This document shows, in pieces, positions 45,201 through 51,000 of a stretch of 64,000 nt of DNA (position 1 is the first letter of the stretch; each line of letters opens with the position of its first letter). The DNA is from Mizuhopecten yessoensis (lineage: Eukaryota), in the NCBI RefSeq assembly GCF_002113885.1, contig NW_018408848.1, positions 316,300 to 380,299 of the forward strand, in the 5' to 3' direction. Made by a program: the position numbers.

Positions 45201-47991
45201 TAAGTATATGCAAGCTTAACTAAATAGTTCTTAAGTGGAGCCTGTCTCAACAGAATCTTGAATAATCAAGAAAATTTGTATTAAATGACCTAATTACATG
45301 ATGTGTGGTATAAGTACACTATAGTAAATCTACTGATTTCCATTTATGTGGTATAAGTACACTATAGTAAATCTACTGATTTCCATTTATGTCTGGTTGG
45401 GACAGGTTTGGTTTTTATTTATTTAACATTGATCGATGACATCTAGTCAACGCTGTAATAAACATATTTATCTAAAATGAAGTTTCAGAAATTATATGTA
45501 TATTTAAAAATAATGTGTGTATCAATCGGTCAAAACCATATATCAATAATTTGTATTGCCTCAAATGGCAAATAGATAATTTATGATAAAAAAGACCTGG
45601 AGTCAGACAATTGGGAGATAGCATTCTTATGTTGTGTACACTTACTTGTCAAGGCTGGAGACATATTACATATCAGACTAAAGTTGACTGCTAAAGCTGA
45701 ATATGATACAAACTAAAGTCAACATTAAGCTAAATCCATGCCTTCAGCAATAAATGCCCAATAAACACCATGTTTAATAAACATCTGAAGGAATATTGTT
45801 CATCTCAATAACGATTCCCGTAAATGTAATGACATTTCACAAAGCATTCTTGTTTAGGGTATATATTAAACCATAATTGTCACTCAGTTTGTGTAAACTT
45901 AAAATAGATATCTCGGGCTGACATCATAGAAAAAATTCCTTCCTTCATAGACAAAGAGGTTTTCCCAAATTTATCTTTCATCCGTTTCAACACCAACTTA
46001 CATCATCATATGTCAAAAAAACATATATATAGGTCTCATTGTACAGTTTAGAAGGATATAAAAAGATATTAACAGTAATTTGAATTAAGTTCATTTTAAA
46101 ATTCCTGGAAGTCAAACTGACTAAATATTTGATTACTTCATTTGGGACTGAAAAATACACAAGGACCAAGTTTGAACATTTGTTAGGACTGTGTGATCAT
46201 GCAACAGTTAAATTTTGAGAGATTCAAACATCTTCAGGCTTTCCTTGTTTGTCACACACTGAAACCATTGGTACACCTAAAGCTGTTTCCATGTTATAAA
46301 AGGTCATGCCCCCATCCCTAGTCAAGCTTACAGAGTTCATAAAATGCACTTGAAATCATTATGATATAGACAATTTCATTTACATTATGATGCAATTGTC
46401 ATAAATGTGAATCATAATATATGGGAGAATAATTTATATCACAGTTCAGCTGTAATAATTTTTACCTTCTTTTTATGCTTTCCAGTTTCAAATTTACATA
46501 TCATAGACTTGACATGATTTTTGCGTGGCACAACTCGCTGGTCCACAAACAGGTGAAGTGTCTGGGGTTGCCCTAAGAGCTGCCGGCCCCCGTTAGACTG
46601 CCAGATGAGGTGACATTGCCCTCTCCTTGTTATGTAGTACTCATATACTCCGTCATGATTTTCACATTCACATACATCCATGCTCACCACCAAACTTCCT
46701 GTGGGATCTAAACTCTTTCCTTCATTTGATGGCAACACCTGATTCCACAATGATTTATAGAATACTTGTGTCACTAATGCATCTCAGGATATTTTTTTTT
46801 AAATATCTTAAATGTTATAATCATCAACTCTTGTCTAGAACAAAAGTACATTGTTTTAAACTACATACAACATATTTTGTCTTCTTATTCTGTGCATAGT
46901 CATTAGCTAGGTATATATAGTCATTCAAAATGTTTGTTGATATCCATCAGGCTGAAAGTTATCCATACCAAATTTTACCTGTCATACTGAACACTTGAGA
47001 TATGCTCAATATACATTTTAAGACACAGAAAGAATTCACCAAGAACTAAATCCAAAATCTTAATAACATGAAAGAATCAAAGATCTTAGAGACTCATTAA
47101 TTATTCACTCCAGTCCGTCTGTTATCTTCTTGAAGAACAAAACTATTCTGATTTCCCCCACAGCAGGCAATGAATGGATGATTCACTAAGATACAATCAC
47201 ATCTCCCTATATGTCTTTACATATATAAACAGTTCCTCAAATATTGTATTCATCCCTGATCAGTTTTGGAATGACGGAATCAAACCCTCCTGCTTCCTTG
47301 CCTGGTTTGATGTGAGGTGATATATCTGTATAACAGGTGCAGATTTTGGGGCTGTTTACCTTGGGTCACAGGACCACCTGACTTCCGTAATGAGTGGGTA
47401 TCTATGTTGAGTCCCCTCACCCCTGGAATGACTGATTATACACTCCGGTGATGAAACAGACTGCCTCTCACTGCTTCATCACCTTAACAATTAAATACCT
47501 TATAATTCTTAATGTTCCCCCATTTCCATGTGAAATATCGGCGCCTTGTATGTGTTAACAGGGACATTTCCATTATTTTTTTTAACAATATAAAACAAAT
47601 TCTTTTCAACATCCTAATATCAGGTTAAAACTTCCAAATAAAAAAATCTTTTTTTGGGCGAGTATTCTGTAAAATATTTGAAGCACTGGGCCAAATATTT
47701 CCTCAGCATTTAACACAATGCTTCAGCACATTTAAATTACATATAACATGACAATGTTTGTAATATGTAAAACAGAATTAAACATTATATATTTAATTCT
47801 TCCACCCTAGTTAAAACCTGACATGATCTACTCCATTCAGGTCTTCCCAAATAGAAAGACACAAAACTCGCACCTCAAAGAAGACACCCTGGCAGTATTT
47901 ATATAGAAAATCTGAAGAAAAACAATTATCACATTTTCTAAATCACGGACAGTTTGATTCAAATCGAAGTAATGACAACTTAAAAAAATGT

Positions 47992-48022
<31 letters not shown>

Positions 48023-51000
48023 AGTTAATGTGGAAGGGACTATAATTTCTTTTATTCATTAATTTTTTCGACAGTCTTTTGGTCGCACAAGCAAGACTTT
48101 AACCGCCATTTGCGAGTAGGCGAACGTCAATTTCAGGCACTGCTGCACAACAAGGGAACAAGGGGAACCTACATATGAAATTTGAGAAAGATCCCTCTGG
48201 TACTTCCCGAGAAACAGCGATAACAAACTGTTGGGCTAAAAAATCTTAACTGGCTGGATGTTTGACCACTAAATGCCATGTACCACTTTGTCAAGGCAGG
48301 GCACCAAAACAAGAAAACAAACTTACTAGCAATGACAAAATATGGATAAAAAAAACAAATTTTTTTTTGGAGGTTGATGGAACAGAATAGTCATACCTTC
48401 TGATATTGGGTGTTGATGAGTCGGATATCGCACATGCTGGGTGTGTGGTATGTGACTGTCGGATCATTCAGCGACAGTTGCACCGACAGTACACATGGTT
48501 TTTATTGAGAAATGTACACATTTTTATAAGAACTTTCGAAATTCATATTTATTGATGGAACGGTTTTATATAAATTCATGATGTAGGTATGGAAATGTGA
48601 GGAATGTGGGCGAGTTTGATCTGTAATTACTGTCTGCAATTATGCGCTCCATACAAAAAATAATTGATATTTTGGTGTTGTTTTGGTTTATGTCAGAGGG
48701 TGTGGTATTGGAGGGAATAACTCCATCCATCTGAGGATGACAAACTTGTATCAACCAGAACACCCGGGGTTTAATTACACTGTCAAACACTGCAGGCCTC
48801 GATGGGAAGCTGATACTGTTAACTGTGTGGTTTAAGTTTGCAATCATTTCAAAATGTATACGTATTTTGACTATACATGACATTGTATATATCATAAAGA
48901 GGTATCAGATCATAAGGTGTGAAAAGTCCTCTACCACTGAAGCACTGGTAATATTGTGATTAGAGTACAAAGAAGTACACATCAATGTAGGATATCATGA
49001 CTGGTTTTGAACTCTCTTCATGATGGGGAGTATTTATGAAGGATGAAAATAATTCCGTTCTTAAAATCATATTATAATTGTTTCTGCATTTTAAGGAAGA
49101 ACTATTTTTAATATCAGGCCTTAAAGAAATCAGAAAATGTTATCATAAAGACATTAATTAAAACAAAATATAACAGATGACAATTTAATACAATTTATTT
49201 AAAATTTATTCTATAGCAGATGAGATCAGGACACACTACAAGCACTTAAAGAAAGGGTTGATATCAAGTGTTTTCCCCCTGGGGTTCTAAGTACTATATT
49301 ATAGTGCAGCTTTTAGAAATATCTGGTTTTTACTCTACCTCCATTTGTTTCTAATTTACAAAAAGATAGGGACAACTCTCTGAACTAGACAACATCACTA
49401 CAAAGGTAAAACAAATCTTCCAGCGATAAATCATGGCACATCAATGCACAGCAGGCCTTTTTTGTCCAAAGCACATCCCACAAATTGCTGGAGACAGATT
49501 GGACATAAAACACCTGTCATACGGCCACCTTAGCGACAGCCCTATCATGTGGCTGTCTTCGACCTTATCTGTGTGATAAGTCCCGCAGTAGGATGACGAG
49601 GTACAACATTAAGATACCATTAACAATCATCAACACTTCCACCGGCCTTTGTTTATATGTTTGTATATGTCCTAAAGTCTTGTTTTACATTAGGATGGGC
49701 TGGTAATGGTCATCACAGTACATACATTATAACAGTATTGTATAATGTAACACATCAGGAATAAACCAGTCAATTACTGGTATATACGTATATACACGAA
49801 CCTTAAAGCTAGGACTGTCACATCATCATACATCTATATACCAGGATTTTTTACCCTCCATTATGAACGAGAATTTATTAGTTCTGCGAATATTAGTAAT
49901 TAACATAACATACATAGTAATTATATGTGCAGGGCGAAATTAACACTGGGAAAATAGGATTTTTATTGATTACAGGCGAAAATGTTGATGGCGCGAAAGT
50001 GTGTACAGTATACAATAACAGGTGACATGACACAAAGTTACCCAATAAAATATTAACCTTCCAAAGATTAGAAATTGAAATACTAAAAATAAATATTATT
50101 TTAACCCTAAAATAGCATTAAAGTTCTAGTCATTCACAAGCAGTCACAATATAGAGGGTTCCCAGAGTGCTCTCTAGACCAGTTAATACAGGTTTAGTGT
50201 TAATTGAGATTCTCCAATGTATCGACTTGTTATATTTCTGGATTTTCTATGTGATGAAGATACAAATTTTAAATGAATGACATGATTGATCCAGGTAACA
50301 TGACTTTGGTATGTTTCTAAGTAGAAGTATGTTTATCGTATGTTTTCTTGTTTATTGGAACTTCCTTTTATATTTACAACTGCAACTAAATAAAAATTTG
50401 TGGCAAAATGACAGAACATTTCACTACATTTTTAAGTTCCAACATAGAAAAAGAAAACTAATGTCATTTTGCTTTGTTTTTACTTACATCTCATTCTGAC
50501 AAAGAATTGTCTTTTTGTTACATTTTTACTATAATCAATAAAAGAACTGTCATTTTGTTACATTAAATATTTTGTGTTTTATATTCCTGATCATTCAGTT
50601 TATCTACGGGGACATTTGTATGTCCCACTTGTTGGTACGTGTTGTGCCTCGACCATATGTATAATGTTGGTGACTAATAGACAGACAGTATACATGTCCT
50701 ACGTCACCAGTACACTACACTGACTAATAGACAGACAGGTTACATGTCCTACGTCACCAGTCCACTACATTGACTAATAGACAGACAGGTTACATGACCT
50801 ACGTCACCAGTACACTACATTGACTATTAAGACAGACAGGTTACATGTCCTACGTCACCAGTCCACTACATTGACTAATAGACAGACAGGTTACATGTCC
50901 TATGTCACCAGTACACTACACTGACTAATAGACAGACACGATACATGTCCTACGTCACCAGTACACTACATTCACTAATAGACAGACAGTATACATGTCC

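What the first reader, a model, noticed from the sequence alone, without database searches (positions are those of the whole stretch)
46466..48500. Swappable N-termini plugged directly onto a PP1-docking motif: two candidate alternative first exons
Seen: two separate ATG-initiated frames (46681-46466 and 48435-48397) each end in AAG|GT in phase 0. They would give ...GKHKKK-LKISF (~220 aa protein) or MCDIRLINTQYQK-LKISF (~160 aa protein). No large canonical upstream exon was recognised in the 20 kb to the window end, so a long form probably starts further out. Known: basic residues N-terminal to RVxF motifs strengthen PP1 binding, and phostensin has short and long isoforms. Inference: promoter choice would tune PP1 affinity and localisation of a common C-terminal module, which I do not know to be described in invertebrates.
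Basis: partly seen in the sequence, partly recalled or inferred. Interest (0 to 1): 0.7.

Follow-up and report, generated by a model that had tools for sequence, protein, structure and literature searches.

The report
Possible hidden exon in scallop taperin-like gene
Inside a very long intron of a scallop gene for a phosphatase-docking protein, one of the two proposed extra start exons looks like a real, conserved but unannotated coding exon, and the other looks like chance.

Summary
Both ATG frames exist as described, and both end in AAG|GT in phase 0. The LKISF exon (43508-43250, minus strand) is the penultimate coding exon of a 1129-aa Mizuhopecten yessoensis protein. Only its last two coding exons lie in the window. 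The intron holding both candidates is therefore longer than 20.5 kb, and the long form does start further out.

The C-terminus is phostensin/taperin-like:
- It carries a KISF motif.
- PF13914 matches at E 0.0099 and 17 bits, below the 25-bit cut-off.
- The Atlas neighbours are PF13914 clusters.

Candidate A (46681-46466):
- Its 3' 165 bases match two unnamed short ORFs at 87% and about 66% identity.
- The replacements are far more conservative than neutral drift predicts.
- 'KKK|VK' is invariant across the donor.
- The homologues' start region is frameshifted in the window.
- No database protein joins A to LKISF.
- A is probably a real unannotated coding exon. Its splicing to LKISF is inferred.

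Candidate B (48435-48397) is indistinguishable from chance.

The idea that these exons tune PP1 affinity is untested.

The parts
46466..46681 (-). Candidate exon A: an ATG-initiated 72-codon frame ending AAG|GTAAAA. The ATG at 46681-46679 sits in the context gagcATGG.
46466..46630 (-). Conserved core of A (55 codons, TRRGQCHLIWQS...KFETGKHKKK). This is the part shared in frame with the homologues P0009 and P0005.
   Evidence: 87% identity to P0009; 59% to P0005 over 59 columns that include a 5-codon gap; 33 of 50 aligned residues identical to P0005 and 48 of 55 to P0009, with replacements more conservative than the neutral simulation.
46630..46677 (-). A 15-codon frame (MYVNVKIMTEYMSTT) closed by TAA at 46632-46630. 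It corresponds to the N-terminus of the homologues but is out of frame with the core. About 5 extra bases in the window are inferred between 46641 and 46630.
   Evidence: P0009 residues 1-19 align in frame -2, the core in frame -1.
46460..46465 (-). Putative donor GTAAAA of A. The residues K-K-K-V-K read across it are invariant in all three sequences. The more distant homologue loses all similarity after it.
48397..48435 (-). Candidate exon B: an ATG-initiated 13-codon frame ending AAG|GTATGA. Judged a chance ORF.
43250..43508 (-). Penultimate coding exon of the taperin/phostensin-like gene (LKISFNDK...LSGA plus 1 nt), with a phase-0 acceptor. The KISF docking motif starts at its second codon.
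40528..40718 (-). Last coding exon (TFGGYKSK...NSSADLLF, then the TAG stop).
43509..64000 (-). The part of the intron upstream of the LKISF exon that lies in the window (more than 20.5 kb). It is rich in minisatellites. The canonical upstream exon (...AKTRKTK) lies beyond 64000.

Best explanation
The finding sits in the intron, more than 20.5 kb long, that precedes the KISF-bearing exon of a scallop gene for a 1129-aa taperin/phostensin-like PP1-docking protein. Candidate A is most likely a genuine, conserved, so far unannotated coding exon whose donor at 46466|46465 is used. The simplest partner is the next known acceptor on that strand, the phase-0 LKISF exon 2957 bases downstream. That splice would give a short isoform of about 221 aa. 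In it, a lineage-specific head ending in a lysine run replaces the 980 N-terminal residues and directly abuts the KISF motif. Candidate B is a chance ORF. Shown: the frames, phases and gene identity; the conservation of A's core; and the conserved residues across its donor. Inferred: that A is transcribed from its own start site, that it is spliced to the LKISF exon, and that it is translated from the ATG at 46681.
For: 1. The exhaustive representative search found P0005 (82 aa, E 9.6e-12). The word-indexed search found P0009 (84 aa, 87% identity, E 1.3e-25).
2. tblastn places both on 46630-46448/46454 in the frame of A, with no frameshift in the core and one in-frame 5-codon gap in P0005. No second copy exists in the window.
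3. Replacements are conservative. For P0005, 17 mismatches in 50 aligned residues give a BLOSUM62 sum of +9, against -8 to -11 (sd about 6.3) in 5000 neutral-substitution simulations per setting. Only 0.0006-0.005 of simulations reach +9. The same test on the two annotated exons against three orthologues gives 0.006-0.41.
4. K-K-K-V-K across AAG|GTAAAA is invariant in all three sequences. After it, P0005 shows no similarity to the window, as expected at an exon-intron boundary.
5. The phase matches the LKISF acceptor, and A ends in a basic run like the canonical exon (KHKKK versus KTRKTK).
6. A is the only one of 542 phase-0 candidates with a donor score of at least 7/9 and 72 or more codons.
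7. It is not a tandem or interspersed repeat within the window, and it has no Pfam or Atlas family that would mark it as a transposon gene.
Against: 1. No protein of 39-2000 aa in the 5.8-billion-cluster set joins A to LKISF. The only proteins carrying the LKISF exon are four long forms of 1126-1144 aa, one per scallop species. Both homologues of A read straight through the donor, so they are unspliced or genomic.
2. The N-terminal 14-19 residues shared by P0009 and P0005 lie in a different frame in the window and run into TAA. The window's ATG at 46681 gives an N-terminus that neither homologue shares.
3. P0009 is so close that its similarity continues 18 bases into the 'intron'. Only P0005 bears on the boundary argument, so that argument rests on a single sequence.
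4. The database holds only open frames, so the openness of the homologues is not independent evidence.
5. The taxa of P0005 and P0009 are unknown. They could be paralogous copies rather than orthologous introns.
6. CpG o/e is 0.13-0.27 around A, with no sign of a CpG-rich promoter.
7. The PF13914 match spans the canonical junction (profile positions 96-140 of 142). A short form would therefore lose most of the conserved domain.
8. The AlphaFold model of A is poor (pLDDT 52.8).
Confidence: 0.45

Rival explanations
1. Neither candidate is an exon. A is an accidental open frame in intronic DNA. Its matches are the same intronic or repeated DNA in related genomes, caught by ORF callers.
For: Open frames of 112-130 aa occur elsewhere in the same 28 kb. 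No spliced or annotated form exists. The window is frameshifted relative to the homologues' start region. Similarity to P0009 continues past the donor. CpG is depleted around A, as in the surrounding intron. P0009 alone gives no significant signal of conservative replacement (0.09-0.17).
Against: The replacement pattern against P0005 is reached by only 0.06-0.5% of neutral simulations. There is no frameshifting indel in 50-55 codons at about 66% identity. Similarity to P0005 ends just past the donor.
Confidence: 0.25
2. A is a real coding exon but belongs to something else. It could be a separate unannotated gene nested in the intron on the same strand, or a domesticated or mobile gene fragment. 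In either case it is not spliced to the LKISF exon.
For: The same conservation evidence applies. Nothing ties A to LKISF except position, strand and phase, and phase alone matches one time in three. hhalign finds no relation between A and the long protein (probability 0.06%, E 0.75).
Against: No other conserved exon or family hit was seen among the frames tested on the minus strand nearby. Only two relatives turned up in 1.84 billion representatives, whereas a mobile-element protein would be expected to have many. A's terminal lysine run resembles the canonical residues in front of KISF.
Confidence: 0.2
3. A is an internal cassette exon, for example 46738-46466 (273 nt, phases 0 to 0, open in the window), inserted between the canonical ...AKTRKTK exon and the LKISF exon in some transcripts. 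On this reading it is not a first exon.
For: The core frame stays open up to 46783. An AG at 46740-46739 would give a frame-preserving exon (read).
Against: That acceptor has no pyrimidine tract. The other AGs I checked, which would start the exon at 46707 or 46698, give lengths that are not multiples of three. The stretch upstream of the core is in a different frame in both homologues. No long protein contains A.
Confidence: 0.05

Closest known systems
Phostensin (PPP1R18) long and short isoforms in mammals
   Same: It is a PP1-targeting protein with a KISF docking motif near the C-terminus. Its long and short forms share the PP1- and actin-binding C-terminal part. It has been described as 165 aa and as 613 aa (passages of PMC3507197). 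Alpha is the short form and beta the long form (passages of bioRxiv 10.1101/2021.09.24.461584).
   Different: In mouse both forms start inside the same exon 1, at Met1 and Met429. The short form is therefore a nested truncation with no sequence of its own. Here the short form would get a unique 72-aa head from a separate exon, and would keep no canonical residue in front of the exon that carries KISF.
Taperin (TPRN) isoforms
   Same: It has the same KISF motif in a conserved stretch. Isoforms 2-4 lack the first 306 residues of the 711-aa isoform 1, and all isoforms keep the docking motif (passages of PMC3507197).
   Different: Isoforms 2-4 keep about 270 residues upstream of KISF (KISF at 271-274). 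That paper reported the family only in vertebrates. The scallop protein reaches PF13914 only below the curated cut-off and shows no PF13916 match.
Ordinary alternative first exons / alternative promoters of animal genes
   Same: An ATG-bearing exon inside a long intron, with a donor in the phase of the next constitutive acceptor.
   Different: No transcript, start-site or promoter evidence could be obtained here. The initiation codon is not shared with the homologues.

Membership tests
Phostensin/taperin family (PPP1R18, TPRN; Pfam PF13914 and PF13916) | KISF variant of the RVxF PP1-docking motif in a conserved C-terminal stretch | tested here: met
   LKISFNDKATATHEYQSENA is invariant or nearly so in 4 of 4 scallop proteins. 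KISF is reported as the docking motif shared by taperin and phostensin (PMC3507197, passages). The Pfam alignment covers this stretch.
Phostensin/taperin family (PPP1R18, TPRN; Pfam PF13914 and PF13916) | PF13914 (Phostensin PP1-binding and SH3-binding region) at or above the curated score | tested here: inconclusive
   The C-terminal 203 aa of P0001 gives E 0.0099 and 17 bits against a 25-bit cut-off. Only profile positions 96-140 of 142 match. Whole proteins P0001 and P0003 give no hit at E up to 10, and the LKISF exon alone gives none. In the Atlas feature search of residues 930-1129, the first three neighbours are PF13914 clusters at 0.93, 0.90 and 0.90. This counts as a lead only.
Phostensin/taperin family (PPP1R18, TPRN; Pfam PF13914 and PF13916) | N-terminal Phostensin_N region (PF13916) | tested here: not met
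   No Pfam family for whole P0001 or P0003 at E up to 10. HMMER's filters may drop weak matches in long low-complexity proteins, and the N-terminus was not scanned on its own.
Phostensin/taperin family (PPP1R18, TPRN; Pfam PF13914 and PF13916) | Binds the PP1 catalytic subunit and F-actin | not testable with these tools
   Needs pulldown and co-sedimentation experiments. No solved structure of a relative was found by sequence (best E 3.3, unrelated).
Alternative first exon of the host gene | ATG-initiated open frame ending at a GT donor in the phase of the downstream acceptor | tested here: met
   Met for both A and B. For B this is no more than chance.
Alternative first exon of the host gene | Frame and donor conserved in relatives under purifying selection | tested here: inconclusive
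   A: the core and 'KKK|VK' are conserved in 2 unnamed records, with conservative replacements. However, the start region is frameshifted, the taxa are unknown, and no DNA was available for dN/dS. B: at 13 aa it is too short for any search offered, and no mollusc genomes are on hand.
Alternative first exon of the host gene | Spliced transcript joining the exon to the common exon | not testable with these tools
   No RNA data were available. Indirectly, no database protein of 39-2000 aa joins A to LKISF.
Alternative first exon of the host gene | Its own transcription start or promoter | not testable with these tools
   TATAAA at 46759-46754 lies 73 bases upstream of the ATG. By my own arithmetic, about 24 such hexamers are expected per strand in 20.5 kb at this base composition. 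CpG o/e is 0.13-0.27 around A and 0.61-0.69 around B.

The most novel reading that the evidence does not exclude
Candidate A is a conserved alternative first exon that gives scallops a minimal PP1-docking isoform of about 221 aa. In it, a lineage-specific head with a terminal lysine run replaces all 980 N-terminal residues, including most of the PF13914 region, and sits one residue from KISF. The family was described in 2011 as vertebrate-specific. On this reading it would have evolved long and short forms in molluscs by a different route (a separate coding first exon) from the internal start used in mouse.
Probability: 0.35. Interest if true: 0.45.

Novelty: new member of a known kind. Interest (0 to 1): 0.3.

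Why it matters
If A is used, the current annotations of four scallop genomes miss a short isoform of a PP1-targeting protein. That isoform would be a natural experiment on how much sequence in front of a KISF/RVxF motif is needed for docking and targeting. It would also add an invertebrate case to a family studied mainly for human deafness (taperin) and leukocyte integrin activation (phostensin). If A is not used, the finding is an ordinary intronic ORF. Either way, the gene's automatic names (nuclear receptor coactivator 6-like, proteoglycan 4-like, titin-like, dao-5-like) hide its likely kinship with taperin and phostensin.

Tried and rejected
- Pfam on both candidate frames, the 105-aa extension of A, P0005 and P0009 gave nothing at E up to 10.
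- Pfam on neighbouring minus-strand frames gave only a Cofilin_ADF match at E 0.2 and 11.8 bits, which I treat as noise.
- The Atlas feature search with A gave no usable hit.
- hhalign and BLASTP of A against the long protein, to test whether A is a duplicate of the canonical upstream exon, gave probability 0.06% and E 80. I rejected that idea.
- Three other hits of the representative search were not pursued. P0006 and P0007 are internally repetitive proteins that match through reiterated short stretches. P0008 is a cysteine-rich two-repeat protein at E 2.8e-4. None was used further.
- The PDB sequence search with the LKISF exon gave only unrelated hits at E 3.3 and 9.6.
- AlphaFold2 on the 3-sequence alignment of A gave pLDDT 52.8, so I ran no fold search.
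- The self-comparison of 45.5-49.5 kb against the window found only a poly-G/poly-C match.
- Rfam at gathering thresholds found nothing in the window.
- Literature: 'phostensin' plus 'mollus' returned 0 papers. 'phostensin' plus 'Drosophila' returned 9 listings. I opened one (PMC10213199, passages), which concerned a human locus. Two broader searches were too noisy to use.
- The first version of the simulation script timed out and was rerun.
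Full report
**What is in the sequence**

On the minus strand, 46681-46466 is a 216-base ATG-initiated frame: MDVCECENHDGVYEYYITRRGQCHLIWQSNGGRQLLGQPQTLHLFVDQRVVPRKNHVKSMICKFETGKHKKK, followed by GTAAAA. 48435-48397 is a 39-base frame (MCDIRLINTQYQK) followed by GTATGA. The exon that opens with LKISF starts at 43508, behind a good acceptor (ttgtgtctttacag). The window has N at 13260, 26653-26799 and 59876. None lies in the region studied, and none was filled.

**The gene**

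- The LKISF exon is 100% identical to the C-terminal part of a 1129-aa Mizuhopecten yessoensis protein, automatically named 'nuclear receptor coactivator 6-like'.
- It is 88-92% identical to single proteins of 1126-1144 aa from Ylistrum balloti, Pecten maximus and Argopecten irradians. Each of these carries a different automatic name.
- Those proteins read ...AKTRKTK|LKISF, so the acceptor is in phase 0.
- tblastn with the 1129-aa protein finds only its last two coding exons in the window: 43508-43250 and 40718-40528 including the stop.
- No 6-mer of residues 1-980 occurs in any frame.
- The upstream canonical exon therefore lies beyond 64000, and the intron holding both candidates exceeds 20.5 kb.

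**Family**

- Whole-protein Pfam scans give nothing.
- The C-terminal 203 residues alone match PF13914 (Phostensin) at E 0.0099 and 17 bits, below the 25-bit cut-off. The match covers IKCIGAG...KTK|LKISFNDKATATHEYQSENA, which is profile positions 96-140 of 142.
- The protein-language-model search of residues 930-1129 puts PF13914 clusters first, at 0.93, 0.90 and 0.90, including arthropod and chordate clusters.
- KISF is the docking motif shared by taperin and phostensin (passages of PMC3507197).
- I therefore treat the gene as taperin/phostensin-like, but membership by the curated threshold is not met.
- My impression that the residues after KISF and the C-terminal end resemble human taperin is recalled, not tested.
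- The supplementary alignments of PMC3507197, which would bear on this, could not be seen.
- The Pfam match spans the exon junction. Any head spliced onto LKISF would therefore replace most of the conserved region.

**Chance**

In 43509-64000 on the minus strand, 542 of 1721 GT sites close a phase-0 frame that has an upstream ATG.

| Count | Minus strand | Plus strand (control) |
|---|---|---|
| GT sites | 1721 | 1170 |
| Phase-0 frames with an upstream ATG | 542 | 257 |
| ...that also match at least 7 of 9 consensus donor positions | 13 | 6 |
| ...and have 13 or more codons | 7 | 4 |
| ...and have 72 or more codons | 1 (A) | 0 |

- Candidate B is one of several equivalent accidents. Its stop-to-stop frame is only 35 codons, and no tool here can test 13 residues for conservation.
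- A's length alone is also unremarkable, since other non-repeat frames of 112 and 130 aa lie nearby.

**Conservation of A**

- The exhaustive search of 1.84 billion representatives found four hits. One is a real relative: P0005 (82 aa, E 9.6e-12). Two are internally repetitive proteins. One is a weak cysteine-rich match. I set the last three aside.
- The word-indexed search in the 39-126 aa range found P0009 (84 aa, 87% identity over 76% of A, from a 1204-base unnamed contig).
- tblastn places both on 46630-46448/46454 in A's frame.
- 48 of 55 core residues are identical in P0009. 33 of 50 are identical in P0005, which has one in-frame 5-codon gap.
- The 17 replacements against P0005 sum to +9 in BLOSUM62. 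Neutral nucleotide-substitution simulations from the window's own codons, conditioned on no stop and the same number of replacements, give -8 to -11 (sd about 6.3). Only 0.06-0.5% of 5000 runs per setting reach +9.
- P0009 alone is not significant in this test (9-17%).
- The same test on the two annotated exons against three orthologues gives 0.6-41%. A's signal is therefore as strong as that of known coding sequence.
- K-K-K-V-K across AAG|GTAAAA is invariant in the three sequences. Beyond it, P0005 has no similarity to the window, while the close P0009 stays similar for 18 more bases.
- This is the pattern expected of a coding exon with a conserved donor. The boundary argument, however, rests on P0005 alone.

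**Problems for A**

- The homologues share an N-terminus: M.VN..MTEF[ML]S[SQ]T. In the window this lies in another frame (46677-46633, MYVNVKIMTEYMSTT) and is closed by TAA at 46632-46630.
- Comparing the frames implies about 5 extra bases in the window between 46641 and 46630.
It is in the core frame and in a good context (gagcATGG). The frame survives in this genome, but with a head of 16-17 residues that the homologues do not share.
- Both homologues read through the donor, so they are unspliced or genomic.
- No protein of 127-2000 aa contains A. None of 39-126 aa does apart from P0009.
- The LKISF exon was found only in the four long proteins among proteins of 154-2000 aa. Both predicted short forms (221 and 162 aa) fall in that length range.
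- CpG o/e around A is 0.13-0.27, like the rest of the intron.
- A is not related to the canonical protein, has no family, and gives a poor structure model.
- A is single-copy in the window and lies outside the many minisatellites.

**Mechanism**

- Most likely (about 0.45): A is an unannotated alternative 5' coding exon. It would be transcribed from a start near 46.7 kb and spliced from 46466 to 43508, giving a protein of about 221 aa. That protein would keep the KISF motif, the acidic stretch and the conserved C-terminal end, but none of the 980 upstream residues.
- Its lysine run would take the place of the canonical KTRKTK in front of the motif. That basic residues there favour PP1 binding is established knowledge that I recall, not something tested here. 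Because both heads are basic, a large change in PP1 affinity is not predicted for A. A change in targeting, through loss of the long N-terminal part, is the more plausible consequence.
- The rival explanations are a chance or neutral ORF, an exon of another nested gene, and an internal cassette exon.

**Comparison with known cases**

- Mouse phostensin makes its short and long forms from Met429 and Met1 of the same exon (passages of bioRxiv 10.1101/2021.09.24.461584).
- Taperin isoforms 2-4 lack 306 N-terminal residues but keep about 270 residues before KISF (passages of PMC3507197).
- A separate coding first exon abutting the motif would be a different route to the same kind of result.
- I found no paper holding both 'phostensin' and 'mollus'. 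That search covers only the held library.

**What was left out or stayed unchecked**

- I searched the model exon by exon. The joined A+LKISF or B+LKISF sequence was not built, searched or folded.
- The contig collections that might hold the DNA of P0005 and P0009 were closed. The one open collection holds only bacteria and archaea.
- As a result, synteny, copy number and dN/dS in other bivalves, and the source taxa of the two homologues, remain unknown.

Noticed in passing
window 50671-52019, 53027-53550, 54438-57721, 59640-59824, 60074-60742, 61199-61959, 63686-63998 (also 1806-3701, 10082-11972, 24930-27597, 29470-30857): The window is packed with minisatellite arrays of 20-146-base units, for example a 33-base unit repeated about 88 times at 54739-57721. 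Seven arrays lie in the long intron upstream of the LKISF exon. They create many long spurious open frames on both strands.
   Followed up: partly
window 38715-40000: A 32-base unit repeated 40 times at 98% identity starts about 530 bases downstream of the gene's stop codon (40528). It lies in or just after the 3' UTR.
   Followed up: no
P0001-P0004 (orthologues of the gene at window 40528-43508 and beyond): The four scallop orthologues carry four unrelated automatic names: nuclear receptor coactivator 6-like, proteoglycan 4-like, titin-like and nucleolar protein dao-5-like. Their C-termini nevertheless look phostensin/taperin-like, a family that a 2011 paper reported only in vertebrates.
   Followed up: partly
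window 46466-46549 versus P0001 residues 357-384: hhalign paired A's TLHLFVDQRVVPRKNHVKSMICKFETGK with TLKSENEECELPKPNTVSTFRTLFEANT of the long protein, sharing the pattern P..N.V.....FE. The match is not significant (E 0.75, probability 0.06%) and is recorded only as a curiosity.
   Followed up: no
window 63401-64000: This is the only strongly CpG-rich stretch of the upstream intron (o/e 1.17, GC 0.42). It coincides with a 62-base tandem array at the window's edge.
   Followed up: no
window 47996-48023 and 38004-38025: A run of about 27 G on the minus strand lies between the two candidates, with a similar homopolymer run at 38.0 kb. These were the only self-matches of the 45.5-49.5 kb region.
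   Followed up: no
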